This document shows positions 2,593 to 41,071 of a DNA stretch of 44,420 nucleotides, piece by piece. The position numbers were made by a program, and so were the translations under genes. The notes beneath the pieces are model-generated. The model ran no database searches and was not told where the DNA came from. It saw only the letters and a program-made list of their open reading frames with translations. Within the stretch, counting starts at the first letter, position 1; each line of letters starts with the position of its first letter. The stretch lies in the IMG/VR virus record IMGVR_UViG_3300045988_035600, positions 1 through 44,420 of that record; one strand, given 5' to 3'. This DNA comes from a virus.

Positions 2593-2807
2593 GCTTCCAC
2601 CTCTACAAAATACTTTTCTAAAGTTTCTTTTGATATTTCAATCCATCTGTTAACATTTACTCCGTCAAGATGAATTTCTCCATCAATAATTTTTTCATCT
2701 CCAACTTCATAAACTTCACCTATCTTAATTTCCATGTACCCATCAACGTAAAATCCATCATCATCGTATGTATCTAACGTGAATGCTTTCACGCATTTAT
2801 ACTTCAT
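2589..2807 (-). CDS. Hypothetical protein
   Basis: 72-aa track ORF with SD gaggaggtggaaggATG. 4-nt overlaps with both neighbours. Confidence 0.7.
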   Translation of the reverse strand: MKYKCVKAFTLDTYDDDGFYVDGYMEIKIGEVYEVGDEKIIDGEIHLDGVNVNRWIEISKETLEKYFVEVEA

Positions 2808-3097
2808 CCTTCCACCTCCTCATAAGTTTCACTGAATATATCTGGCTTACACGGATAAAATTCACCGTGTACACCGCGGATGATGTAATCACCAATGTTT
2901 TCAAGATGTTCGCCCTCAAGTGTCTTAATGACCAGACCTCCTGGAACCTTCCAATGGTCAATATAGAAATTCTTACCTTCTGCCGACATGTACTGGTCTG
3001 TGCATTGATAGTCCGTCAGGAAATCGAACATTTCTCGATGGTTTGTACCAGTCCACTGTACTGTATCAATTACAACTGGCTTCTTTCTGTACTTCAT
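2804..3097 (-). CDS. Conserved phage hypothetical protein (MKYRKKPVVI...GDYIIRGVHGEFYPCKPDIF type)
   Basis: 97-aa track ORF with SD gaggtggttgtATG. I recall this motif pattern from many phage early regions. Function unknown. Confidence 0.7.
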   Translation of the reverse strand: MKYRKKPVVIDTVQWTGTNHREMFDFLTDYQCTDQYMSAEGKNFYIDHWKVPGGLVIKTLEGEHLENIGDYIIRGVHGEFYPCKPDIFSETYEEVEG

Positions 3098-3456
3098 ACA
3101 ACCACCTCACTATCATCTGGCATCTGAAACAGGATTGATTTTCTTATCTCATTTCCATAGCCTTTTAATACAGCAATTCCATGCGCCACACTTTCTTTTG
3201 TATCATAGCTTCCTGTGTATGCTGATCCTGCCAACCCACTGCCAATAATTTCACCGGATTTGTAATCCATGTAAGCTTCCTGAATCATATCCAGTACTTT
3301 CATGGCTTTTGCTTTATCCGAATATTCTCCTAGCAGATAACTGCATCCGGTTATGTATGATGTTATAATTGTTTTTATAGGTCCTTCCGCAATTTCAGTG
3401 CCTGCCATAGAATTGAGATTAATCAATACTTCTCTATTCTGACTTCTGATTAACAT
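3094..3456 (-). CDS. Hypothetical protein
   Basis: 120-aa track ORF with SD gaggaggacgcgaaATG. Confidence 0.7.
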   Translation of the reverse strand: MLIRSQNREVLINLNSMAGTEIAEGPIKTIITSYITGCSYLLGEYSDKAKAMKVLDMIQEAYMDYKSGEIIGSGLAGSAYTGSYDTKESVAHGIAVLKGYGNEIRKSILFQMPDDSEVVV

Positions 3457-3656
3457 TTCGCGTCCTCCTCGTTGTTCGCTCTTTTATTCCATGCTTCTAT
3501 TGCATATTCGGGATTGTTATAATGTCCTGTACCGCAAAGACAGTTACCGCATCTTACAAGATACTGAGCATTACCTAAATATCCCATTTCATCATCGGTA
3601 AAAATTTGCGCCTCTTCTCCACAAAACGGGCACGGCTTTAACTGTTCCATTTTCAT
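3450..3656 (-). CDS. Lar-family (restriction alleviation)-like zinc-ribbon protein
   Basis: CPFCG...(x)...RCGNCLCGT...EYAIEAWNKR matches the Lar-family pattern as I recall it. The start was chosen at MKMEQL after gtgagg. The track start at 3686 is also possible. Confidence 0.6.
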   Translation of the reverse strand: MKMEQLKPCPFCGEEAQIFTDDEMGYLGNAQYLVRCGNCLCGTGHYNNPEYAIEAWNKRANNEEDAKC

Positions 3657-4808: not shown

Positions 4809-6908
4809 CTAGTCAAATGGTATCTCACACTCACACATTTTTTCAAATTCGCTTAATTTTCTGACTTTTTGGTAGCATATCTGCGGACCATACTTTCCAC
4901 ATCTCACCCGTTTCCCACCATTTTCCCTTTCCCATCCGTCAATGCAGTTCTGCATGATGGAGTGAATTTCGTTGGACTCGAACCTTGTGGGCTTGCGGCC
5001 CTCGTTACCCAGCGCCTGTTCATATAGCATTGCGACGCAAACGCGAGGTTCCGCTGTATGGTCTAGCCATTCTTGAATAATTCCAACTCTCACGTCCTCC
5101 TCCATAAATTCCTCCTGTTTATCCTCTATATATCTCTGTAAATTCTTCGGAAGAATTAACTTAGGTGCTCTATTGGCCCTTTCAAAAAGCTCCATGGCTT
5201 CTCCCCAAGCGTTTGTAAAGTCTGACGCTACGGCTTGTGGATCATCAAACATGGATTTCAGGACGTGTTCTTTTCTCGTGACTATCGGAAGGAATCGTCT
5301 ATTGCCTGTTCTATCAGTCAGGAAACGGTCATTGTTGGTTGTTCCGGCAAATACACACACTCTTGGTCTCTGCTCTGTTCTGCGCCCATATGGAGGCCTG
5401 TACGTGTCCACTGTGGATGTTAAAAATGCTTTGATGCTCTCAACTTCTTTTGCTTTTTTAGTAGCCAGCAGTTCTGCCAGTTCCACCATCCACATACCGC
5501 GCAGCTTTTCCGGGGCTTTGTCGCCCTCGACTGTATTGAAGTTGTCGTTATACCATGCGTTATTGAGTGATAAAAGTCTCAGGAAGGTAGATTTTCCAAT
5601 TCCCTGTGAGCCGTATAATACTGGCATGTAGTCAAACTTACATCCCGGATGGAATGCCCTGCTGATTGCACCTAACATAAACAGTTTCATACATTCCCTG
5701 GAATACTCTGTGTCTTCTACTCCCAGATATTCTGGAAGCAATTTGATGATATATCCCGTCTTTTTATTCCACTTATTCTTATGAATGTCAGTAAGCATAT
5801 CAACAACAGGGTTGAATCTGTTTCTATTCGCCACAATATTAAGTGCTTCCATGATCTTCTCCAGACTCTTTAGCCCATATTTTGATTCAATGTACGACTT
5901 CAAATTGCTGTCATCACTGTTACTCCATTCCCTATACATGTTTACATGCTCCCACGGGAGACTTCCGCAAACAAAGGGCGCGTATGATAGCTCGTTATAT
6001 TTGATATGTCCATACAAATCAGGGTCGTACTCAATGGCTTCACACATGTTCTTAATGCTCTGAATCATTACTCCTTTTTCTGTAAAATCAAACTCCGGCT
6101 CCCTCCACCCTTGCGTTGCAACCCCCTCTGAGTCAATGTGAATGGGTTTTCCTTTATCATATCTAGTCGCACTTGATACAATGACTTTGACTTCCTGTTC
6201 AGTTAATGGAGGCGAGCAGGAACTTTCATTCTCAGCCATGGTAGCGGCAAACACTGATTGATCTGATGCTCCCTTCGCCTGCATCATACACGCAAAACGA
6301 AAAAGCATCTGATTTCTTTGTCCTGCTGCCACGATATTTGGCATAGTAAAAGCCGTACCATGCTTCTGATCGTCATGGTTCAAGAAGTATTCTACATTGT
6401 TATCGGCCTTTGCAATTTCAAATTCATCCGGTGAATATTCCCATTCATACCGATTGCCATTCTTATGTATTGATGGAGGAGCTACTACATACCCGCCATT
6501 TCCACGAATATCTACACCATCAATAATTCCAGCTCGGTTCTTTATTTTGCCATTTCCACGATAGTACAAATGGTATCCGCCACGCCCCGTTATAGCCGTC
6601 CATGTTTCTGGGAAATCCCCGTGTTCACGCTGCCAATCTTCAAGTGAATGGTACCCATCTATTCCGCGATCTTCATCAATGTCTAAATCAATCACAAACA
6701 CATTCTGGCTAACCGAGCCAGTCGCAAGGCCTATGTTTGCATTTGGGTATTTCTGCCACCAAGCTTTTATCTGGGCCGCATCCGTAGTTGCATCCTTGCA
6801 TCCATTCCTGGTAAGTGGAACTTTATCGCGATATTTTAACGGGAAGACAGCAAATCCTTTTTTGGCATATTCGATAGCCGCATCATACATACTCGGATAT
6901 TCACTCAT
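4809..6908 (-). CDS. Bifunctional primase-polymerase (prim-pol) / PriCT / VirE-type P-loop NTPase replication protein
   Basis: N-terminus AKKGFAVFPL...VFVIDLDID is prim-pol-like. GQRNQMLFRFACMMQAKG is PriCT-like. Walker A is YGSQGIGKST. The start was moved to the ATG after aggtga (track start 6917 is a GTG). Confidence 0.85.
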   Translation of the reverse strand: MSEYPSMYDAAIEYAKKGFAVFPLKYRDKVPLTRNGCKDATTDAAQIKAWWQKYPNANIGLATGSVSQNVFVIDLDIDEDRGIDGYHSLEDWQREHGDFPETWTAITGRGGYHLYYRGNGKIKNRAGIIDGVDIRGNGGYVVAPPSIHKNGNRYEWEYSPDEFEIAKADNNVEYFLNHDDQKHGTAFTMPNIVAAGQRNQMLFRFACMMQAKGASDQSVFAATMAENESSCSPPLTEQEVKVIVSSATRYDKGKPIHIDSEGVATQGWREPEFDFTEKGVMIQSIKNMCEAIEYDPDLYGHIKYNELSYAPFVCGSLPWEHVNMYREWSNSDDSNLKSYIESKYGLKSLEKIMEALNIVANRNRFNPVVDMLTDIHKNKWNKKTGYIIKLLPEYLGVEDTEYSRECMKLFMLGAISRAFHPGCKFDYMPVLYGSQGIGKSTFLRLLSLNNAWYNDNFNTVEGDKAPEKLRGMWMVELAELLATKKAKEVESIKAFLTSTVDTYRPPYGRRTEQRPRVCVFAGTTNNDRFLTDRTGNRRFLPIVTRKEHVLKSMFDDPQAVASDFTNAWGEAMELFERANRAPKLILPKNLQRYIEDKQEEFMEEDVRVGIIQEWLDHTAEPRVCVAMLYEQALGNEGRKPTRFESNEIHSIMQNCIDGWERENGGKRVRCGKYGPQICYQKVRKLSEFEKMCECEIPFD

Positions 6909-11938: not shown

Positions 11939-12051
11939 GATTTTCTCCTTTCAGTTTATAGTCTTGCTTCGCTTGGACACCTGACTTTGAACCTGCCATC
12001 ATCAGCACCGGGCGGTCATTCCCGGTGGACGGTCATTGCTGACCGTTTCGG

Positions 12052-12255
12052 CTATCCGTTTATTACTGCATTTATGGTATCCCATGCCTGTTGATAGCTT
12101 ATTAATACTTCACCCTTGTGTGGACCTGTGGGAATAACGGAACCCCACTTCGGAGTGCCGATTCTATCAGTTATCATTTTTTTATCAGGCACATATTTCG
12201 TTTTAAATGTCCTGAGTGTCTTCATTGCGCATCGTTTATATTGTTTCTTTGTCAT
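12052..12255 (-). CDS. Hypothetical basic protein
   Basis: 67-aa track ORF with SD aaagaggtaatagatATG. Confidence 0.65.
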   Translation of the reverse strand: MTKKQYKRCAMKTLRTFKTKYVPDKKMITDRIGTPKWGSVIPTGPHKGEVLISYQQAWDTINAVING

Positions 12256-14422: not shown

Positions 14423-15604
14423 ATGGCGAAGAAAAGAAAGAAATACCCGAAGCTCCCCAATAGCTTCGGAACAATACGGTACCTGGGCGGCAACCGCAGG
14501 AATCCATTTGCGGTTCATCCGCCGGCAGTACTGGATGAAAAGACCGGAAAGCCCGTCCGACCGCCTGCAATCTGCTATGTGGACGACTGGATCAAAGGAT
14601 TTACTGTACTGACCGCATACAAGGCAGGAACATATCAGCCAGGGATGGAACGGGATCTTGAGATATCACCTACAACGGACGTAGATACCCTTGTTACTCG
14701 TTTGATTGCTGACTACAATACAATCAAGGGTGTCGAGGATAAACACCCGGAAATCAAGAAATTGACGTTTTCAGAGGTATATAAGAAGTTTTACGCATGG
14801 AAATTTCCAGAGGGTTCAAAACTTTCTTATAGTTCAAAAATAGCTTACCAGACCGCTTACTCGAACTGCACGACTCTGTACAATCGTATCTTTGAGGATT
14901 TAAAAGCGCCTGATCTGCAAAAGGTAATTGATGACTGCCCGTTAAAGCGTCAGAGTCTCATGGCGATTCTTACGCTGTTCAAGCAGATGTATAAATATGC
15001 TGTTTACTCAGAAATTGTAACGGAAAACAAGGCGTTATATGTCCATGTCAATGCTGATAATGACACCGAACATGGAACGCCCTTTTCTGATCAGGAAATG
15101 CAAGTGCTGTGGAATAATACCGACAATCAAGAAGTACAGCTCATTCTTATTATGTGTTACTCCGGCTGGAGAATCGGTGAAGTGTTAAAACTTACAACCA
15201 ACTTAGAAGAAGGATACTTTCAAGGCGGCATCAAAACAAAAGCCGGTAAAAACAGAATTGTCCCGATACATCCCGCTATATACCATTTTGTCGAACAGAA
15301 AGTGCTGACACAAGATGGAAAATTATGCGTGTATACTCAGCAGCATCACAGAAAAGCGTTGTTCTATCCTACACTCGAACGTCTTGGGATTGTTGGCGAT
15401 CCGAAACACACTCCGCATGACTGCCGGCATACTTTTTCTATGTTATGTGAAAAATACGGCGTCCGGGAGAACGACCGGAAGCGAATGCTGGGTCACTCTT
15501 TTGGTGGAGATGTTACAAACGCGGTATATGGACACAGGACATTGGAAGAACTCCGCACAGAGATTGAGAAAATAAAAGTCCCATTTGTGACTAACTGTGA
15601 CTAA
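14423..15604 (+). CDS. int: Tyrosine recombinase (phage integrase)
   Basis: ...WRIGEVLKL..., HTPHDCRHTFSM..., MLGHS...VYGH give the R...HxxR...Y catalytic pattern. 393 aa. Confidence 0.9.
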   Translation: MAKKRKKYPKLPNSFGTIRYLGGNRRNPFAVHPPAVLDEKTGKPVRPPAICYVDDWIKGFTVLTAYKAGTYQPGMERDLEISPTTDVDTLVTRLIADYNTIKGVEDKHPEIKKLTFSEVYKKFYAWKFPEGSKLSYSSKIAYQTAYSNCTTLYNRIFEDLKAPDLQKVIDDCPLKRQSLMAILTLFKQMYKYAVYSEIVTENKALYVHVNADNDTEHGTPFSDQEMQVLWNNTDNQEVQLILIMCYSGWRIGEVLKLTTNLEEGYFQGGIKTKAGKNRIVPIHPAIYHFVEQKVLTQDGKLCVYTQQHHRKALFYPTLERLGIVGDPKHTPHDCRHTFSMLCEKYGVRENDRKRMLGHSFGGDVTNAVYGHRTLEELRTEIEKIKVPFVTNCD

Positions 15605-34772: not shown

Positions 34773-34844
34773 TTGGAAAGGCAGGAATCGAACCTGTGAC
34801 ACATAGCTTACAAGACTACTGCTCTACCACTGAGCTACATTCCA
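34773..34844 (-). tRNA. tRNA, anticodon UGU (Thr) by hand fold; no encoded CCA
   Basis: TGGAATG TA GCTC AGTGGTA GAGC A GTAGT CTTGTAA GCTAT GTGTC ACAGG TTCGATT CCTGC CTTTCCA A. U8, A14, G18G19, U33, A37 and TTCGA are all present. There is one T-T mismatch in the acceptor stem and an A-C at 49:65. Confidence 0.8.
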
Positions 34845-36273: not shown

Positions 36274-37053
36274 TCAGCAATTACATCCAGTGTTGCATCC
36301 GCATCCGTAATATGTGTTCGGATTAGGAACCTGATATGCCGGAATCGGCGCCGGATTAATCGCATTAATGAGCTGCTGTGTCTGTGAAGCCATTGCAGTT
36401 GTGAGAAGTGCGCTCTGGCGGTCCTGAGAAGCAGCACGTCTGAGGTCGTTATTTTCAGCCTGGAGATTGGAAATCTTCTCGTTGCACAGGTAATCAAGGA
36501 TTGCCCTTGTTCCGGCGTTCTGGCTGTCGATAATATCTCTAGTGTTGTTGTTCATGGTGTTCTGTAATGCACAGGTGTTCTGTGCCATGTTGTAGTTCAC
36601 GCCCTGGATAGCTTCTCTGGTTTCACAGCAGCAATTTGCAAGCTGAGACTGTAATGCGTTTGCGTTCTGCATATTAGCTACAGTATCGGCATTAATAGCC
36701 TGCTGGATGCCGAAACCAGTCTGCATGATGTTGGTGTTGATTCCATTGAATCCGGTAAGCATACCATTATTCATGGCATAGAAGCCATCGCACAGACCAC
36801 TGTTGATTCCGTCAAGCTTGCTAATCACTGCGGAATTGTCAAATCCTCTCTGAATGTCTGCCTGAGTAGCTGCTGTGGCTACATATCCGCCGCCGTTTCC
36901 ATTATTGCCCCATCCGTTGTTTCCCCATCCGAAGAAAGCAAAAATAAATAAAACAATAATCCACCAGCTGCCATCTCCACCAAACATGCCGTCATTATTT
37001 CTACCGTTTCCAGTAGCAGCGGCAATATCTGCTAAGCTATAATTTCCATCCAT
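36274..37053 (-). CDS. Single-pass membrane protein: G/N/W-rich juxtamembrane segment, N/Q-rich ectodomain with conserved Cys, C-terminal YYGCGCNTGCNC
   Basis: TM WWIIVLFIFAFFGWG, then NNGWGNNGNGGGY, ...LANCCCETREAIQG...NTCALQN...LDYLCNEK..., and the tail CGCNTGCNC. SD aaaggagattatattATG. Confidence 0.75.
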   Translation of the reverse strand: MDGNYSLADIAAATGNGRNNDGMFGGDGSWWIIVLFIFAFFGWGNNGWGNNGNGGGYVATAATQADIQRGFDNSAVISKLDGINSGLCDGFYAMNNGMLTGFNGINTNIMQTGFGIQQAINADTVANMQNANALQSQLANCCCETREAIQGVNYNMAQNTCALQNTMNNNTRDIIDSQNAGTRAILDYLCNEKISNLQAENNDLRRAASQDRQSALLTTAMASQTQQLINAINPAPIPAYQVPNPNTYYGCGCNTGCNC

Positions 37054-37105
37054 AATATAATCTCCTTTTTGTGTATTTACATCAATCTGGCCAGATTGTA
37101 ATGTA

Positions 37106-37327
37106 CTATTTCATTCCTTTCAACATGTGCTGGAATTGCCCTGCCATCTGTTGAACTTGATTGAGCTGCTGTTGAGAAATCTTTCCAGACTGCAACATTT
37201 TCTCGACTTCTGCTTTCGGATCTCCCTTAAAATTCTGTTTAAACTGCATAAACTGTTGTATCATCTGCATTGGTCCGTTTCCCTGCGGCATCCCGCCGCC
37301 AAGTGCGTTAAATAATGGATTACTCAT
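37106..37327 (-). CDS. Q/M-rich small protein (73 aa)
   Basis: MSNPLFNALGGGMPQGNGPMQMIQQFMQFKQNF...QQQLNQVQQMAGQFQHMLKGMK. The second ATG has the best SD spacing after agggagg. Confidence 0.65.
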   Translation of the reverse strand: MSNPLFNALGGGMPQGNGPMQMIQQFMQFKQNFKGDPKAEVEKMLQSGKISQQQLNQVQQMAGQFQHMLKGMK

Positions 37328-37790
37328 CTGCATTTCCTCCCTTGGTCGCTGATTCCTGTACGGTATTAGCCCTAACAGGTTCAGAAAATGAATTTAATCG
37401 GTTTATGATAACTTCGTATTTGCCTTTCAAATCATCGTATTCCTGTCGAGTAACATATTTACTGTCCATGTTCTGAACAGGCTGCTTAGGCGGCATCTGA
37501 GAACCTACCTCGTGGTATTCAAATGTCCGCAGTGGTTGTGGCATACCGGATACATCTGTGGATTTTATGTAGAACTTTTCACTTTCGCTGTCCATCAGCA
37601 AAACACTTGTCCCGGGTGCTACCAGATAGGATTTTGCGCCGACTTCGCCGGATACCCACAGGATACCGCTATTATTCTGCTGTGGTTGCTGTACTGGTTG
37701 AGCTGGAATCTGGACAGGCTGTTGCTGGAACTGGTTCATTTGCCCAGGGACGCCAAAGCTATATTGATAAGGATTATTATATAATGCCAT
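37320..37790 (-). CDS. Protein with a Q/P-rich N-terminus and a beta-rich core
   Basis: MALYNNPYQYSFGVPGQMNQFQQQPVQIPAQPVQQPQQNNSGILWVSGEVGAKSYLVAPGTSVLLMDSESEKFYIKS... SD aaaggcggtgtataagATG. Confidence 0.7.
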   Translation of the reverse strand: MALYNNPYQYSFGVPGQMNQFQQQPVQIPAQPVQQPQQNNSGILWVSGEVGAKSYLVAPGTSVLLMDSESEKFYIKSTDVSGMPQPLRTFEYHEVGSQMPPKQPVQNMDSKYVTRQEYDDLKGKYEVIINRLNSFSEPVRANTVQESATKGGNADE

Positions 37791-37867
37791 CTTATACACC
37801 GCCTTTCTGATTATATTTTTACACAGAAGTATTAAACTAAGAAGTTCAAAAAAGTATCAAAAAAGTA

Positions 37868-37899
37868 TTGACATATCACCCACTGAGTGGTATTATAAT
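37868..37899 (+). promoter_or_regulatory. Consensus sigma-70-type promoter with an embedded palindromic operator
   Basis: TTGACA (37868-73), 17 nt, TATTAT (37891-96), overlapping TATAAT (37894-99). The palindrome CCACTgAGTGG (37880-90) sits in the spacer. AAAAAGTAT occurs twice just upstream. Confidence 0.7.
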
Positions 37900-37942
37900 A
37901 TCAGAAACAGGGAAGAACAAAAAAATCAAGGAGGAAATAGAA

Positions 37943-38230
37943 ATGAAAATTAAAATTTATTGTAATTACGGTTGTTTATCGGCTGAAAAAAGAAACGTTT
38001 ACACATATGGATTCCCAGAAGCCACAGCTACTTGCTGGGACGAAATGACAGTGGAAGTCCCGGAAGGCTGGGAAGTGTTCGAAAATTCCATGGGAAGCTT
38101 AATGGTAACATCTCCTTGGGGCTTTGTTTACGTGATAAATGAAGTACTTCAGGGCAACGAAAAACCATGCTTTTATGCATTAGATAAAAACATGAACGGA
38201 CACCGCCAGTATTTAAAAGTTTTGGATTGA
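37943..38230 (+). CDS. Small hypothetical protein (95 aa), first gene of the plus-strand operon
   Basis: SD caaggaggaaatagaaATG, MKIKIYCNYGCLSAEKRNVYTYGFPEATATCWDEM... Confidence 0.7.
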   Translation: MKIKIYCNYGCLSAEKRNVYTYGFPEATATCWDEMTVEVPEGWEVFENSMGSLMVTSPWGFVYVINEVLQGNEKPCFYALDKNMNGHRQYLKVLD

Positions 38231-38247
38231 TAGGAGGAATAAAAAAA

Positions 38248-38481
38248 ATGATAAAATTAAACACATCATCTTACGTTTACGGGCAGAACGACACAATAGA
38301 GGTCGGAGAGGAATACTATTTCGGTCAGCTCTGGGACGGTGACGGGGACGGCGAAGAACTGATAGAGTCTGAAGCAATCGCCATATATCAGGACGGCGAG
38401 GAATATATTGTTGACTTCGAGATTTTGGAGTCTGCGGAGGATATTTTACAAACCCGAGTTAAGGTTACCGGGATTAACTAG
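38248..38481 (+). CDS. Small, very acidic protein (77 aa)
   Basis: SD taggaggaataaaaaaaATG. About 19 D/E against 3 K/R by hand count (WDGDGDGEELIESEA...). Confidence 0.7.
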   Translation: MIKLNTSSYVYGQNDTIEVGEEYYFGQLWDGDGDGEELIESEAIAIYQDGEEYIVDFEILESAEDILQTRVKVTGIN

Positions 38482-38492
38482 GAGGCAGGAAA

Positions 38493-38708
38493 ATGAAGTA
38501 TATAATTATGGATTATACAGACGGTGATTGTTTCACCGATGAATTTGAGAACAAAGAAGAAGCCCTTCAGGAAGCGGATGAACAATGGGAGCATCTAACA
38601 AGGTGCGAAAAGAAACACAGATCGGAGTTTTACGTGCTGGAAAGCATCAATCCGGACGAGGACACGCCCGATCATTACGACGGAGGCATTGTGAAGCGTT
38701 GGAAATAA
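38493..38708 (+). CDS. Small acidic protein (71 aa)
   Basis: SD taggaggcaggaaaATG. About 20 D/E against 9 K/R. Confidence 0.7.
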   Translation: MKYIIMDYTDGDCFTDEFENKEEALQEADEQWEHLTRCEKKHRSEFYVLESINPDEDTPDHYDGGIVKRWK

Positions 38709-38730
38709 AAAGAAGAAAGAAAGGAACAAT

Positions 38731-38898
38731 ATGAACATCAAAGAAATTAGATTAATTTCCGGGTTAAGCCAGCAGGCTTTTTCCGATAAATACAAAATTC
38801 CCAAAAGGACAATTGAAAACTGGGAAGGCGGTAAAAGAAATCCACCAGAATACGTAATTTTATTGCTTGAAAGAGCTGTAAAAGAAGATTTTGCATAA
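38731..38898 (+). CDS. Mini HTH regulator (55 aa, XRE/MqsA-like HTH), hand-called
   Basis: MNIKEIRLISGLSQQAFSDKYKIPKRTIENWEGGKRNPPEYVILLLERAVKEDFA. SD gaaaggaacaatATG. Below the track cutoff. Confidence 0.7.
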   Translation: MNIKEIRLISGLSQQAFSDKYKIPKRTIENWEGGKRNPPEYVILLLERAVKEDFA

Positions 38899-38902
38899 AA
38901 AG

Positions 38903-38929
38903 AAGGAGGGGTAAATTGCCTCTCCTTTT
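38903..38929. terminator. Bidirectional terminator between the plus-strand operon and the convergent minus-strand gene
   Basis: AAGGAGGGG taaattg CCTCTCCTT with T-runs on both strands. Confidence 0.55.
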
Positions 38930-39128
38930 AGCATACTTTTATAATCTTACTGTTTACTCTTCTGCTTAATCTCTTTACGGTAGATATGCTCACATTCATC
39001 TGTTCAGCACAGTATTCGAGCGTATATTCCTTGCATCTCAGCCGGAACAGTCTTTCTTCGTCCGGTGTGAAATTACACTCTATCAAGAATCTGTCTATAT
39101 CTTTCTTCGTGAACACATATAATTTCAT
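38928..39128 (-). CDS. Small sigma-70 region-4-like HTH protein
   Basis: ...TPDEERLFRLRCKEYTLEYCAEQMNVSISTVKRLSRRVNSKI... The start is at the second ATG after aagggg. Confidence 0.6.
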   Translation of the reverse strand: MKLYVFTKKDIDRFLIECNFTPDEERLFRLRCKEYTLEYCAEQMNVSISTVKRLSRRVNSKIIKVC

Positions 39129-39148
39129 GAGCATACCCCTTACTAATG

Positions 39149-39454
39149 CTAACGTTGATTCTGCGCAAGATAATTTGTAAGTTTCTGTTTTGTTTTTTTT
39201 AATTCTTCTACATTATTCCCACTAATCTGACTATCCAACATGGTTGATAGCACTTCCAAAATCAATGAATCACGTTCCGCGATCCTCTGAAGACTCTCAA
39301 AGTCACGCTTATCATGTTCTTCCAGTGTCTCAACTCGTTTGTTGAGTCGAAATGCCGGAGTAATCCACTTAAAGATTACGGCTGCCGCGCCTCCGACAAT
39401 GGATATCCCTCCGCAGATAGAGAGGAAGATCTGTACAAATTCTGATATGCTCAT
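39149..39454 (-). CDS. N-terminally anchored membrane protein with a coiled-coil
   Basis: TM FVQIFLSICGGISIVGGAAAVIF, then a charged helical region. SD aaaggagtagctaaATG. Confidence 0.7.
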   Translation of the reverse strand: MSISEFVQIFLSICGGISIVGGAAAVIFKWITPAFRLNKRVETLEEHDKRDFESLQRIAERDSLILEVLSTMLDSQISGNNVEELKKTKQKLTNYLAQNQR

Positions 39455-39458
39455 TTAG

Positions 39459-39842
39459 CTACTCCTTTTCCCAGTAGTATACCGGGATTTCATTACCACT
39501 ATCCCATGTATCGTAATATTTGCCATTCTGTACCGTCACTACGTGTCCATCTATACAGAGAATGTATGTGCCTGTCGGATGGTCTGTGCAAAAGTCGTTG
39601 ACTGTATAGATATATCGTTCTGATTGTTCAATCAGCTTGCGTCTGTACCCACGTTTATAGAGGTACGCTCCCCAGACATAATTTGCACTTGGCATATCTG
39701 ACAAAGCGCACGCCTGTACCATTAATCCGGCGAATACTGTTTCCCAGTCGAAACCGGTTGCCTTGCATATTGCCCGGACAACGCAATCTCCTGTTCTCTT
39801 ATCCTTAACGGGATTCGGATTATAATATTCCCATCTATCCAT
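39459..39842 (-). CDS. Putative papain-like cysteine peptidase-fold protein
   Basis: NPNP...RTGDCVVRAI (Cys20) ... ILCIDGHVVTV (His100) ... YYDTWDS. ATGA-coupled to the minor capsid gene. Confidence 0.45.
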   Translation of the reverse strand: MDRWEYYNPNPVKDKRTGDCVVRAICKATGFDWETVFAGLMVQACALSDMPSANYVWGAYLYKRGYRRKLIEQSERYIYTVNDFCTDHPTGTYILCIDGHVVTVQNGKYYDTWDSGNEIPVYYWEKE

Positions 39843-41071
39843 CAGTCAATCCCCTTTGCTGTTTTATATCTCTTTGCCGCTCCTCTGGCTTTTGCGGCGT
39901 TCCGACGATTCCACTTAGCGATCATGAGCCGGTCTTGCAGCTCTCTTAGATCATTGTCTTTGCAGTAAGCCTTGTATGCAGCATTTTGTTTCTGCAAAAG
40001 ATAAGACTTCCGGTCAAGGTCTTGTTGTAATGCGAATTTTGTCTGTTCGTCCTTGCAGTTATCAACCGCCGCTTGCATTCCAAGGACTTCTCGCTTCGTT
40101 TTACGGATTCTTCGTTCATAAGTACGTTGTCGTTGTTCCTTTTCGTACTGTTTGCCTTTGTTGGCTTTATCCTGTGCTGATAGTTCTGCATAGGGGTTAA
40201 ATTCCCCGTCACTTGCCCCAAAACTATGCCGGCAGTTGACCCCTGACAGTCCACTCGCCGTTCCATATCCGGTCAATGAGAACGGCGGAAATTTCTTACT
40301 CTTGCCAGAGCGAGAGTATATCTTGCCTTGCCACCATGCGTGATTTCCCGGATTCTCGCCGCCGTCACCTGTTCTGGCTCCCATGTGAGCACTGACCAGA
40401 ACTAAATCCCAGCCCATTTCTTCCATGCGTTTGAGGGATATATCTCCAGTAGCCTGAGCCACGCCAGTTCTGACAGAACGTGCGACTGCTGTTTCGATCG
40501 TGTCTTTTCTGCCAGATGGATATGTGACCGTAACGCCATCACTCACAACGTTATTAACTGCCTCTTTGATGGCTTGCGTATACCCAACCGCCCCAGTCAT
40601 TACATGATTATAGGCAAGGTCGCATTGCTCAATATAGAGCCTCTGAGCGGCACTTGCAGTTGTTCTTGTGAAGTTCTTCCACTCTCCCATAGTCGCAAGC
40701 ATATTTCGCTCCATGAGTCTTATCATAGCTGGTGACTGTTCGAGCGGTACAGGGCTTAATCCTGCCGCCTTATATACCTTATCATCATAGTTCATTGCAG
40801 TGATTCCTGCATCTTCAAACGCTTCAAGAAGTTCCTGCTGTTCACGTTTGGTATATTTGGATAATTCTGCCAGAATGTCCTCTAGCAGTTCACCGGATTC
40901 CTGCAGTGTTCTGATCCTCCACGCATCGGCATTGGTCAGAATATAATCCTCACCTCTGCCAATTCTTGCCATCATTCTCGACACAATCTCAGAGATGATG
41001 TACTGATGCAGTTCTTCTACTATCTGTTCACTGCCCTCTGTAATTTGCCGTAAATATTCTGGGCTTAACAT
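39842..41071 (-). CDS. Minor capsid / head morphogenesis protein (Phage_min_cap2 / MuF-like)
   Basis: 409 aa directly after the portal gene. ...VSAHMGARTGDGGENPGNHAWWQGKIYS... Basic coiled-coil C-terminus. Confidence 0.75.
   Translation of the reverse strand: MLSPEYLRQITEGSEQIVEELHQYIISEIVSRMMARIGRGEDYILTNADAWRIRTLQESGELLEDILAELSKYTKREQQELLEAFEDAGITAMNYDDKVYKAAGLSPVPLEQSPAMIRLMERNMLATMGEWKNFTRTTASAAQRLYIEQCDLAYNHVMTGAVGYTQAIKEAVNNVVSDGVTVTYPSGRKDTIETAVARSVRTGVAQATGDISLKRMEEMGWDLVLVSAHMGARTGDGGENPGNHAWWQGKIYSRSGKSKKFPPFSLTGYGTASGLSGVNCRHSFGASDGEFNPYAELSAQDKANKGKQYEKEQRQRTYERRIRKTKREVLGMQAAVDNCKDEQTKFALQQDLDRKSYLLQKQNAAYKAYCKDNDLRELQDRLMIAKWNRRNAAKARGAAKRYKTAKGID

What the first reader, a model, noticed from the sequence alone, without database searches (positions are those of the whole stretch)
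37848..38930. Plus-strand operon of three small proteins (two strongly acidic) plus a mini-HTH behind an operator-bearing consensus promoter: acr-aca-like anti-defence locus candidate
This is the only plus-strand block within about 28 kb of minus-strand late genes, and it sits between morphogenesis genes. It starts with a near-perfect promoter: TTGACA, 17 nt, TATTAT, overlapping TATAAT. The spacer of that promoter is filled by the perfect palindrome CCACTgAGTGG. Three short ORFs with strong SDs follow (95, 77 and 71 aa). Two of them are extremely acidic, about 19-20 D/E each. A 55-aa protein that is essentially only an HTH comes last, followed by a bidirectional terminator. A strong promoter with an inverted-repeat operator, small unrelated proteins and a terminal autorepressor HTH is the known organisation of anti-CRISPR/Aca operons. 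Strongly acidic small proteins are also typical of DNA-mimic anti-restriction factors. None of the three small proteins resembles a family I recognise.
Basis: partly seen in the sequence, partly recalled or inferred. Interest (0 to 1): 0.8.

Follow-up and report, generated by a model that had tools for sequence, protein, structure and literature searches.

The report
Self-repressed anti-defence-type cassette in gut phage
A 1.1-kb swappable gene cassette in a temperate gut phage has a strong promoter, three small orphan proteins and a mini-repressor that most likely shuts off its own promoter, the layout of anti-CRISPR operons; sister cassettes carry a known anti-CRISPR, but nothing has been tested for these three proteins.

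Summary
At 37868-38929 a near-consensus promoter drives ORF1 (95 aa), ORF2 (77 aa, pI 4.1), ORF3 (71 aa, pI 4.5) and a 55-aa HTH_3 protein, then a hairpin.

The block is an accessory insert. A sibling phage has 57 bp in its place. About 40 relatives carry 13 or more different cargo sets at the same site, behind the same promoter.

The operator is 15 bp, TCACCCACTGAGTGG, consensus YCACnCAnTGnGTGR. The same promoter and operator occur at 80 sites in 79 genome contigs, one genome per species and almost all Clostridia, against about 0.2 expected. Its free positions stay palindromic. At 59 of 80 sites the same HTH family follows.

The residue before the invariant Trp of the recognition helix predicts the operator base in 86 of 88 pairs (N with A/G, D with C, S/A/E with T). 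This argues strongly that the HTH binds this operator.

Cargo elsewhere includes AcrIC5 homologues and ArdC, and a lone Cas5b-like gene lies beside ORF1/ORF2 homologues.

ORF1-3 match no Pfam, PHROG (annotated), PADLOC or NCBIfam family and no PDB sequence; the ORF1 and ORF3 models match no PDB fold. Their anti-defence role rests on association only.

Verdict: a new member of the acr-aca kind.

The parts
37824..38929 (+). Whole accessory cassette, defined as an insertion or replacement relative to a sibling phage.
   Evidence: Window 37000-37823 and 38930-39900 align at 86-91% to MT835739 (L001), where only 57 bp lie between them. MT839401 (L002) has different cargo at the same site. GC is 0.391 against about 0.43 in the flanks.
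37846..37867 (+). A-rich stretch upstream of the -35 hexamer, resembling an UP element.
   Evidence: The stretch reads AAAAAAGTATCAAAAAAGTA. Phased A-tracts are conserved at this position in 77 distinct promoter segments from genome contigs. Its function is inferred.
37868..37896 (+). Sigma-70-type promoter: TTGACA, 17-nt spacer, TG-n-TATTAT (extended -10).
   Evidence: It scores 11 of 12 and is the top site in the scan. The same promoter is found in 49 IMG/VR contigs and 79 genome contigs.
37876..37890 (.). Operator TCACCCACTGAGTGG. It is a 7-1-7 inverted repeat (5 of 7 pairs in this copy) that fills the spacer and overlaps the extended -10 TG.
   Evidence: This is the only copy in the window. 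Across 80 genome sites the two unconstrained position pairs stay complementary: 58/80 against 22 expected, and 69/80 against 46 expected. Operator base 11 covaries with HTH residue 30.
37943..38230 (+). ORF1, 95 aa, an orphan all-beta protein (phage cargo family C3).
   Evidence: GGAGG ribosome-binding site. 105 homologue clusters, none with an informative name. AlphaFold2 pLDDT 94. No PDB fold match and only weak matches to uncharacterised viral models. No Pfam, PADLOC or NCBIfam hit.
38248..38481 (+). ORF2, 77 aa, strongly acidic with pI 4.1 (cargo family C5).
   Evidence: 214 homologue clusters, named only 'hypothetical protein' where named at all. Charge. Homologues lie next to ORF1 homologues in 73-81-kb contigs from another phage type, and next to a Cas5b-like gene. 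No family hit.
38493..38708 (+). ORF3, 71 aa, acidic with pI 4.5 (cargo family C10).
   Evidence: 44 homologue clusters. AlphaFold2 pLDDT 78.5 with a beta-beta-alpha-alpha-beta-beta order. No PDB fold match. A 52%-identical homologue sits in an unrelated prophage, behind a promoter with the perfect palindrome CCACGCAcTGCGTGG and ahead of an HTH-containing protein.
38731..38898 (+). 55-aa XRE/HTH_3 protein, the probable autorepressor (Aca-like). N30 in R-T-I-E-N-W is the specificity residue.
   Evidence: Pfam HTH_3, 31 bits against a cut-off of 23. The same family lies downstream of 59 of 80 promoter-operator sites. The residue-30 to base-11 code holds in 86 of 88 pairs.
38901..38929 (.). Hairpin terminator between the convergent HTH gene and the - strand 68-aa gene.
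   Evidence: dG -17.7 kcal/mol and z = -3.1 on the + strand; -12 kcal/mol and z = -1.9 on the - strand. Not flagged by the consensus scan.

Best explanation
The block is an accessory, horizontally exchanged operon of the anti-CRISPR/Aca type, inserted in the head-gene region of a temperate siphovirus that infects gut Clostridia.

Proposed mechanism:
1. The host sigma-A RNA polymerase fires the very strong promoter as soon as the DNA enters the cell. The promoter has an UP-like A-tract, TTGACA, a 17-nt spacer and an extended -10.
2. This gives a burst of ORF1, ORF2, ORF3 and the HTH.
3. The 55-aa HTH dimerises and binds the 15-bp inverted repeat. That repeat fills the spacer and overlaps the extended -10.
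4. Binding blocks the polymerase and holds the operon at a low level afterwards, including in the prophage state.
5. The three small proteins are the payload. The most likely role is inhibition of host immunity: CRISPR-Cas type I-B or I-C, or restriction.

What is shown and what is inferred:
- Shown by comparison: the cassette nature of the block, the conservation of the operator, and the co-inheritance and co-variation of HTH and operator.
- Inferred from position: repression rather than activation.
- Inferred by association only: the anti-defence role of ORF1, ORF2 and ORF3.
For: - **Cassette and cargo turnover.** One sibling phage has an empty site, and another has different cargo behind two copies of the promoter. 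There are 13 architectures built from about 10 cargo families among 40 complete cassettes, 36-39 of 50 loci share the same flanking genes, and one further architecture appears in L140.
- **Operator.** The pattern TTGACANNYCACNCRNTGNGTGRTATNAT gives 80 sites in 79 genome contigs from the one-genome-per-species collection, almost all Clostridia. My composition-based estimate of the chance expectation is about 0.2.
  - The free positions 5/11 are complementary in 58 of 80 sites against 22 expected. On the 39 distinct operators the figures are 25 against 9.8 (chi-square p = 3e-6).
  - Positions 1/15 are complementary in 69 of 80 against 46 expected (Fisher p = 4e-4 on the distinct operators).
  - Locus-specific second copies of the operator occur in several loci.
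- **Regulator.** 59 of 80 sites have this HTH family on the same strand within 4 kb downstream, at a median of about 0.5 kb.
- **Residue-base code.** HTH residue 30 predicts operator base 11: N with A/G in 53 of 53, D with C in 23 of 23, and S/A/E with T in 10 of 10.
  - Mutual information is 1.29 bits, with z = 32. The next-best column has z about 8.
  - On a neighbour-joining tree built from the other columns, the residue class changes at least 27 times and the operator class at least 26 times.
  - Pairs that are 76-86% identical elsewhere have switched both residue and operator.
  - By the +3 offset of the match to the 434 repressor, residue 30 corresponds to Gln33. From my own knowledge, Gln33 is a base-contacting residue.
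- **Anti-defence association.** Cargo behind the same module includes AcrIC5 homologues in L078, L079, L133 and L137. The L078 protein matches Pfam PF22147 at E = 1e-21 and 77 bits against a cut-off of 27, and PDB 7YHR at E = 1e-9.
  - AcrIC5 is a validated type I-C inhibitor with known orthologues in Firmicutes (PMC7913775).
  - One cargo is ArdC.
  - A solitary Cas5b-like gene (TIGR01895, E = 1.4e-20) lies in the same operon as ORF2 and ORF1 homologues.
  - ORF1 and ORF2 homologues also sit behind an HTH_26 protein that is 28% identical (E = 3e-13) to an Aca predicted by AcaFinder.
  - A type I-C CRISPR array in a Mediterraneibacter genome carries a spacer that matches this promoter and operator.
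Against: - Nothing has been tested for ORF1, ORF2 or ORF3. They match no known anti-defence family, no PDB sequence, and (ORF1 and ORF3 models only) no PDB fold.
- Most cargo across the wider module is unannotated. Some is not obviously anti-defence: SNF2 + ParB + PAPS reductase, a MutS_I fragment, an HNH-like protein, a DUF4160/DUF2442 pair, and membrane peptides. The module could therefore be a general early or accessory expression unit.
- The Cas5b match is below NCBIfam's trusted cut-off (73.9 against 96.7 bits) and has no PDB sequence match.
- The host of this phage and its defence systems are unknown.
- Binding and repression are inferred, not measured.
- The neighbour-joining tree rests on about 54 columns, so the counts of independent changes are rough.
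Confidence: 0.6

Rival explanations
1. The block is a generic moron or accessory cassette whose payload is not anti-defence. It could instead serve host takeover, superinfection exclusion or a lysogenic-conversion function. The HTH and operator module would then be only a portable expression switch for any early gene.
For: - The phage is temperate, with an integrase and a Sie-like gene.
- A distant ORF3 homologue sits in the classic moron position between the att/integrase end and the lysis genes.
- Cargo across the genome loci is very mixed and mostly unannotated.
- ORF1, ORF2 and ORF3 have no functional homologues.
Against: - The only cargo with a known function that recurs is an anti-CRISPR: AcrIC5, in four loci. 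The other cargo with a named immune-evasion role is ArdC, in one locus.
- A lone Cas5b-like gene shares operons with ORF1 and ORF2 homologues.
- Small size, strong acidity, rapid turnover at a fixed site and a self-repressed strong promoter together form the acr-aca signature (PMC9765179).
Confidence: 0.27
2. The block is a type II toxin-antitoxin module with the toxin gene first, as in HigB-HigA or MqsR-MqsA. The HTH would be the antitoxin and autorepressor, and an upstream ORF the toxin.
For: - The gene order (small genes, then an XRE HTH) and an operator inside the promoter resemble HigBA and MqsRA.
- The HTH gives weak, sub-threshold matches to MqsA and HipB-type antitoxin models and to HigA-2 in the PDB.
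- One genome locus carries a DUF4160/DUF2442 pair.
Against: - No toxin domain was found in ORF1, ORF2 or ORF3, in 10 other phage cargo proteins, or in 53 genome cargo representatives.
- The cargo is acidic, multi-gene and replaced freely while the HTH stays. An antitoxin that must bind one cognate toxin would not tolerate that.
- The 55-aa HTH has no extra domain that could neutralise a toxin.
- Some cassettes have a promoter and cargo but no HTH at all (L002 second unit).
Confidence: 0.03
3. The block is a core developmental switch of the phage. The HTH would be a Cro- or C-protein-like regulator, and the small proteins would be needed for the phage's own early or late programme.
For: - The block lies next to a 68-aa protein resembling sigma-70 region 4, on the other strand.
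- The closest comparable structures are small XRE proteins such as the 434 repressor.
Against: - A sibling phage with 86-91% identical flanks lacks the whole block.
- Relatives carry unrelated cargo at the same site.
- The operator occurs only once in the 44-kb window, so no other phage promoter is under its control.
Confidence: 0.05

Closest known systems
Anti-CRISPR/Aca operons. Examples are acrIF1-aca1 of Pseudomonas phage JBD30, acrIF8-aca2 of Pectobacterium phage ZF40, and acrIF11-aca7 and the aca11 operons (PMC6765145, PMC8633003, PMC12658196).
   Same: - A strong promoter, one to several small unrelated proteins, and a small dimeric HTH that binds an inverted repeat overlapping its own promoter.
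- The same regulator pairs with many different cargo genes, and the same cargo with different regulators.
- The operon is an insert among structural genes of a temperate phage.
- Sister cassettes carry an AcrIC5 homologue.
   Different: - By sequence the HTH is not related above noise to the Aca proteins present in the PDB. It was not found in the part of the AcaFinder supplement held as text.
- There is a single 15-bp operator inside the spacer, rather than the two inverted repeats of Aca1 and Aca2.
- The cassette is transcribed against the surrounding late genes.
- No Acr activity has been shown for any gene in this window.
Fused HTH-Acr proteins: AcrIIA1, AcrIIA13-15 and AcrIF24 (PMC9001735).
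   Same: In many sister cassettes the same HTH is the C-terminal domain of a 100-305-aa protein. Examples are the 243-247-aa form in this phage family and the 283-aa protein in L058. This matches the regulator-plus-effector fusions known for Acrs.
   Different: - The window's HTH is the bare 55-aa domain.
- In the known fusions the HTH is usually N-terminal.
- The extra domains here have no known function.
AcrIIA22 hypervariable islands of clostridial prophages and genomes (PMC8545432).
   Same: Both are short, one-directional arrays of small orphan ORFs in gut Clostridia and their prophages, with rapid gene turnover between conserved flanks.
   Different: - Those islands are defined by the conserved acrIIA22 gene and, in genomes, by purF/radC flanks. 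No conserved regulator was reported for them.
- Here the constant parts are a promoter-operator and an HTH.
- No PDB sequence match was found for the cargo proteins searched. I did not check whether an AcrIIA22 chain is in that PDB copy.
Bacteriophage 434 repressor/Cro-type operator recognition, and C-protein control of restriction-modification operons.
   Same: - A small XRE-fold dimer reads a short palindrome that overlaps a promoter.
- The covarying residue N30 aligns with Gln33 of the 434 repressor (offset; the contact role is from my own knowledge).
- As with C-proteins, the regulator times expression after DNA entry.
   Different: - It is not part of the lysis-lysogeny switch or of a restriction-modification system.
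- One operator rather than three.
- The near-deterministic one-residue-to-one-base code across a large natural family is not, to my knowledge, something described for those systems.
HigBA/MqsRA-type toxin-antitoxin modules.
   Same: Small genes are followed by an XRE HTH that autoregulates through a palindrome in the promoter.
   Different: No toxin domain is present. The cargo is interchangeable, multiple and acidic. The HTH lacks a neutralising domain.

Membership tests
Acr-Aca operon | A small HTH protein is encoded in the same operon as small genes of unknown function on a mobile element. | tested here: met
   Four co-directional ORFs with 12-22 nt gaps lie behind one promoter and ahead of one hairpin.
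Acr-Aca operon | An inverted repeat overlaps the operon's promoter. | tested here: met
   The operator at 37876-37890 lies in the spacer. It is conserved and keeps its palindromic form at 80 genome sites.
Acr-Aca operon | The Aca protein binds that repeat and represses transcription. | not testable with these tools
   The evidence is indirect but strong. The HTH is co-inherited with the operator at 59 of 80 sites, and the residue-30 to base-11 code holds in 86 of 88 pairs. EMSA or a reporter assay is needed.
Acr-Aca operon | At least one operon gene is, or is homologous to, a validated anti-CRISPR. | tested here: not met
   ORF1, ORF2 and ORF3 have no Pfam, NCBIfam, PADLOC or PDB-sequence match, no annotated PHROG match, and (ORF1 and ORF3 models) no PDB fold match. 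The feature is met only in sister cassettes with the same promoter, operator and HTH, which carry AcrIC5 homologues in L078, L079, L133 and L137.
Acr-Aca operon | A gene product inhibits a CRISPR-Cas system in vivo or in vitro. | not testable with these tools
   This needs an experiment.
Known Aca families (Aca1 to Aca13) | Sequence homology of the HTH to a named Aca. | tested here: inconclusive
   A PDB sequence search returned no chain named as an Aca at E <= 1. The best hit was Atu1735 at E = 7e-4. Peptide strings of this HTH are absent from the held part of the AcaFinder supplement, but that file was cut when stored. No Aca HMM library was available.
XRE / HTH_3 (PF01381) | A Pfam score above the gathering threshold. 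| tested here: met
   31 bits against a cut-off of 23, E = 2.7e-7, covering residues 3-49.
Type II toxin-antitoxin (HigBA/MqsRA-like) | A recognisable toxin domain next to the HTH antitoxin. | tested here: not met
   No toxin family appears among ORF1-3, the other phage cargo or 53 genome cargo representatives. The matches of the HTH to MqsA and HipB-type models are far below their cut-offs.
DNA-mimic anti-restriction or anti-CRISPR proteins (Ocr, ArdA, AcrIF2, AcrIIA4, AcrIC5) | A strongly acidic small protein. | tested here: met
   ORF2 has pI 4.1 and net charge -16. ORF3 has pI 4.5 and net charge -11. This feature is not specific.
DNA-mimic anti-restriction or anti-CRISPR proteins (Ocr, ArdA, AcrIF2, AcrIIA4, AcrIC5) | A fold or surface charge pattern that imitates B-DNA, or homology to a known mimic. 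| tested here: inconclusive
   No sequence or fold match to any PDB entry. Surface electrostatics could not be computed.

The most novel reading that the evidence does not exclude
The promoter-operator and the HTH gene could be the two constant ends of a Clostridia-wide plug-and-play cassette system. On this reading:
- Cargo is swapped by recombination between these conserved ends, across phages, prophages and other mobile elements.
- The repressor-operator pairs have diversified through a simple one-residue-to-one-base code (N with A/G, D with C, S/A/E with T). Co-resident cassettes would then be insulated from each other.
- ORF1, ORF2 and ORF3, and dozens of other orphan cargo families, are new inhibitors of type I-B/I-C CRISPR-Cas or other defences. 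Some may work together with a phage-borne decoy Cas5b subunit.
Probability: 0.3. Interest if true: 0.8.

Novelty: new member of a known kind. Interest (0 to 1): 0.66.

Why it matters
- **A discovery handle.** If the reading is right, this window gives access to a large and mostly unexplored pool of anti-defence candidates from gut Clostridia. A 29-bp promoter-operator signature plus one HTH family marks about 10 cargo families in this phage lineage. It marks roughly 84 more clusters across Clostridia genomes sampled at one genome per species. Only AcrIC5 and ArdC among them are recognisable.
- **Why that helps.** Few anti-CRISPRs against the type I-B and I-C systems common in Clostridia are known, and these hosts are hard to work with genetically. 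A sequence-defined marker for finding candidates is therefore useful.
- **Regulator engineering.** The residue-to-base code offers a natural set of orthogonal repressor-operator pairs. It also gives a clean, directly testable case of protein-DNA co-evolution.
- **A separate lead.** The lone Cas5b-like gene beside ORF1 and ORF2 homologues suggests CRISPR inhibition by subunit mimicry.

Tried and rejected
- **Family searches.** Pfam, PHROGs, PADLOC and NCBIfam gave nothing usable for ORF1, ORF2 and ORF3. There were only weak PHROG hits of unknown function.
- **PDB searches.** I ran profile searches for ORF1 and ORF3. I also ran a concatenated query of ORF2 with nine other phage cargo proteins or domains. 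Nothing was significant.
- **Fold searches.**
  - ORF1 model (pLDDT 94) against the PDB: best E = 0.35, TM below 0.31.
  - ORF1 model against BFVD: only uncharacterised viral proteins, best E = 3e-3.
  - ORF3 model against the PDB: best E = 0.57. The matches to Dmd, Gp2 and p56 at E above 2 are noise.
- **Known Aca families.** A sequence search with the HTH returned no chain named as an Aca. The AcaFinder supplement shows HTH_26-type predicted Acas linked to AcrIC5, not this protein.
- **Weak AcrIIA3 hits.** The N-terminal motif of cargo families C2 and C4 hits NCBIfam AcrIIA3 at 15-16 bits against a cut-off of 70. I treat this as a lead only.
- **Cas5b-like protein.** It has no PDB sequence match.
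- **Toxin-antitoxin reading.** Rejected; see the rival explanations.
- **RNA element.** Rejected. Rfam finds nothing in the cassette, and the palindrome lies upstream of the likely transcription start.
- **Palindrome in isolation.** The evidence for it is comparative.
- **Failed or unused calls.** The first collection scan failed because the machine was busy and was repeated. I did not use the search of protein representatives or the metagenome scan. Neither would have added annotation or genomic context.
Full report
**1. The observation**

- TTGACA at 37868-37873 is followed after 17 nt by TATTAT at 37891-37896. TG lies one base upstream of the -10, giving an extended -10. The promoter scores 11 of 12 and is the best site in 36-41 kb.
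- Four co-directional ORFs follow: ORF1 37943-38230 (95 aa), ORF2 38248-38481 (77 aa), ORF3 38493-38708 (71 aa) and an HTH at 38731-38898 (55 aa).
- The first three have GGAGG ribosome-binding sites. The HTH gene has a weaker one.
- ORF2 (pI 4.1, 19 D/E against 3 K/R) and ORF3 (pI 4.5, 20 against 9) are strongly acidic.
- The last protein is a bare HTH_3 domain (Pfam, 31 bits against a cut-off of 23).
- A 13-bp hairpin at 38901-38929 follows. It has dG -17.7 kcal/mol and z = -3.1 on the + strand, and is weaker on the - strand. The consensus scan missed it.
- These are the only + strand ORFs in 15.9-44.4 kb that are not shadows of longer - strand genes.

The surrounding - strand genes are terminase, portal, minor head protein, major head protein and tape measure. 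The phage is temperate, with an integrase at 14423-15604 and a Sie-like gene.

**2. It is a replaceable cassette**

- In the related gut phage MT835739 the flanks align at 86-91%, but window 37824-38929 is replaced by 57 bp.
- In MT839401 the same promoter occurs twice. The first copy drives a 119-aa protein and an HTH whose gene is 82% identical in DNA to the window's. The second copy drives two other proteins and no HTH.
- An exact-pattern scan of IMG/VR found the promoter in 49 contigs. Most are the same phage lineage, with the cassette between the same two - strand genes (36-39 of 50 loci).
- Among 40 complete cassettes there are 13 gene arrangements. They are built from about 10 cargo families plus the HTH, which is either 55-59 aa or the C-terminal domain of a 243-247-aa protein.
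- None of the cargo families has a Pfam domain.

**3. The operator**

In the window it reads TCACCCACTGAGTGG. In MT839401 it is the perfect TCACTCAtTGAGTGA.

A distant ORF3 homologue (52% identity) sits in an unrelated prophage. Its promoter is TTGACA-AA-CCACGCAcTGCGTGG-TATAAT, and an HTH-containing protein ends that operon.

A relaxed pattern, TTGACANNYCACNCRNTGNGTGRTATNAT, was scanned against one genome per species.
- It gave 80 sites in 79 contigs, almost all Clostridia: Lachnospiraceae, Oscillospiraceae, Ruminococcus, Acutalibacteraceae and Christensenellaceae. My estimate of the chance expectation is about 0.2.
- The pattern left positions 5 and 11 fully free and positions 1 and 15 half-free, yet both pairs stay complementary.
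- Positions 5/11 are complementary in 58 of 80 sites against 22 expected. Positions 1/15 are complementary in 69 of 80 against 46 expected.
- On the 39 distinct operators the tests give chi-square p = 3e-6 for positions 5/11 and Fisher p = 4e-4 for positions 1/15.
- L140 shows a further compensated change, CCACCAAaTTGGTGG.
- Several loci carry a second copy of their own operator variant, either upstream of the promoter or in the 5' leader.

The site lies upstream of the likely transcription start. It is therefore a DNA site for a symmetric dimer, not an RNA hairpin.

**4. The regulator binds it (inferred from co-variation)**

A profile built from the phage HTH domains finds the same family on the same strand within 4 kb downstream of 59 of the 80 genome sites. 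The median distance is about 0.5 kb. Several of the remaining sites are cut off by contig ends.

I aligned 88 distinct operator-HTH pairs.
- The residue just before the invariant Trp of helix 3 (R-T-I-E-x-W; N30 in the window) predicts operator base 11 and its mirror base 5.
- N goes with A or G in 53 of 53 pairs, D with C in 23 of 23, and S, A or E with T in 10 of 10. Q is mixed, with 2 cases.
- Mutual information is 1.29 bits and z = 32 against permutation. The next-best column has z about 8.
- On a neighbour-joining tree built from all other columns, the residue class changes at least 27 times and the operator class at least 26 times. Even so, 86 of 88 tips obey the code.
- Proteins that are 76-86% identical elsewhere have switched both, for example L113/L120, L094/L130 and L063/L108/L090.
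- With the +3 offset of the PDB match to the 434 repressor, N30 aligns with Gln33. From my own knowledge, Gln33 is a base-contacting residue.

The operator fills an optimal 17-nt spacer and overlaps the extended -10, so binding should repress. That step is inferred from position, not shown. The operator occurs only once in the window, so the HTH is a dedicated autoregulator here.

**5. What the cargo is**

*ORF1.* It has 105 homologue clusters, and the few that are named are only 'hypothetical protein'. The AlphaFold2 model is a confident all-beta fold (pLDDT 94). It has no PDB counterpart (best E = 0.35) and only weak resemblance to uncharacterised viral models.

*ORF2.* It has 214 clusters, again with no informative names.

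*ORF3.* It has 44 clusters. The model has pLDDT 78.5 and a beta-beta-alpha-alpha-beta-beta order. It has no PDB match.

Sequence searches of the PDB were negative for all cargo. The function of the three proteins is therefore not established.

*Association.* Between the promoter and the HTH in the 59 genome loci lie 101 ORFs in about 84 clusters. Most are singletons, small and often very acidic. Among 53 representatives scanned against Pfam:
- One is ArdC (ArdcN plus MPTase-PolyVal).
- One is AcrIC5 (PF22147, E = 1e-21, 77 bits against a cut-off of 27). Its family is the first gene in four loci.
- The L078 protein also matches the solved AcrIC5 structure 7YHR at E = 1e-9.

AcrIC5 is a validated type I-C inhibitor with orthologues in Firmicutes and Actinobacteria (PMC7913775). 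By the criterion AcaFinder uses, an HTH in the same operon as an Acr homologue is a likely Aca (PMC9765179).

*Further links to ORF1 and ORF2.*
- In L140-L142 (same lineage, same site) an ORF2 homologue is followed by a 64-aa acidic protein and a 229-aa protein.
- In phage-like contigs of 73-81 kb from another phage type (L143-L145), an ORF1 and ORF2 homologue pair follows a different small regulator. In L143 and L144 it is an RHH-like protein. In L145 it is an HTH_26 protein 28% identical (E = 3e-13) to an AcaFinder-predicted Aca linked to AcrIC5, AcrIIA17 and AcrVA3. In L145 the same 229-aa protein ends the operon.
- That 229-aa protein is a divergent, solitary Cas5b. It matches TIGR01895 at E = 1.4e-20 and 73.9 bits, below the 96.7-bit cut-off, and has the N-terminal Cas5 motif. 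It has no PDB sequence match.

*A CRISPR spacer.* One 'promoter' hit (L068, Mediterraneibacter) is actually a spacer in an array of at least 66 repeats. The array lies next to cas7 (type I-C by PDB 7KHA and 8G9S, E = 3e-17), cas4, cas1 and cas2. A host type I-C system has therefore acquired a spacer matching this promoter-operator sequence.

**6. Mechanism and rivals**

*Best reading (confidence about 0.6).* This is an acr-aca-type operon. The strong promoter gives an early burst, the HTH dimer then shuts it off, and the payload is anti-defence, most plausibly against type I CRISPR-Cas or restriction. I would put the regulatory half alone at about 0.85.

*Rivals.*
- A generic accessory cassette with a non-defence payload: about 0.27.
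- A core developmental switch of the phage: about 0.05. It is contradicted by the empty site in a sibling phage.
- A toxin-antitoxin module: about 0.03. There is no toxin domain, the cargo is interchangeable, and the HTH is a bare domain.

**7. Comparison and novelty**

The kind of system, an Acr-Aca operon, is known. Three things are new here:
- this HTH family, which is not recognisably any Aca I could compare it with;
- its conserved promoter-operator, which is spread across Clostridia;
- the simple residue-to-base code.

ORF1, ORF2 and ORF3 are orphan families. I file the finding as a new member of a known kind. It cannot be called an anti-CRISPR locus until a gene is shown to inhibit a defence system.

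Noticed in passing
window 11987-12053 (- strand): Rfam finds a type II hammerhead ribozyme at 53 bits against a gathering score of 37, E = 3e-8. It lies in the early or lysogeny part of the phage genome.
   Followed up: no
window 34773-34844 (- strand): A tRNA-Thr gene (anticodon TGT) sits among the head genes.
   Followed up: no
L140 3439-4128; L145 4183-4872: A phage-borne, solitary and divergent Cas5b-like protein of 229 aa ends the operons that hold ORF2 and ORF1 homologues. It matches TIGR01895 at E = 1.4e-20 and 73.9 bits, below the 96.7-bit cut-off. It may act as a decoy subunit against type I-B CRISPR-Cas.
   Followed up: partly
L068 2824-7170 (spacer at 5908-5941): A Mediterraneibacter MAG has a CRISPR array of at least 66 repeats next to cas7 (type I-C), cas4, cas1 and cas2. 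One spacer, TTCTATTGACATACCACTCAATGAGTGGTATTAT, matches the conserved promoter and operator. The closest protospacer among the fetched loci is in C. symbiosum (L110), with 2 mismatches.
   Followed up: partly
L143-L145, about 2670-3540: ORF1 and ORF2 homologues travel as an adjacent pair in 73-81-kb contigs from another phage type, behind regulators unrelated to the window's HTH. One is an HTH_26 protein similar to an AcaFinder-predicted Aca. The other is a 61-aa RHH-like protein whose promoter region holds repeated TATAACGCACATATA motifs.
   Followed up: partly
L066, L070, L071 (5' leader); L020, L044, L069, L071 (upstream of the -35): Some promoters carry a second copy of their own operator variant, which suggests cooperative binding or looping. 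The window has only one copy.
   Followed up: partly
Phage cargo families C2 and C4, e.g. L002 1216-1536 and L140 2133-2564: The shared basic N-terminal motif MKKYNLSxIMKRAWELVKK...LKxAWxEAK gives weak, sub-threshold hits to NCBIfam AcrIIA3_fam (E = 0.007-0.02, 15-16 bits against a cut-off of 70). The same motif hits PHROGs of unknown function.
   Followed up: no
window 38928-39134 (- strand): A conserved 68-aa protein that is little more than sigma-70 region 4 (Sigma70_r4, E = 5e-4; phrog_1190 sigma factor, E = 2e-6). It converges on the cassette and is present whether or not the cassette is there. It may be a late-gene regulator.
   Followed up: no
window 36274-37053, 37106-37333, 37320-37799 (- strand): Three conserved proteins with unusual composition lie between the cassette and the major head gene. 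They are rich in Q, N and G, and the 259-aa protein has a Cys-rich C-terminus (CGCNTGCNC). They match PHROGs 16490, 22984 and 21718, all of unknown function.
   Followed up: no
L100 (Christensenellaceae MAG), cassette from +74 to +2440 relative to the promoter: The same promoter and HTH module drives ArdC, two Cys-rich proteins, a protein carrying a MutS domain I fragment and other small proteins. This looks like an establishment or leading-region-type gene set.
   Followed up: no
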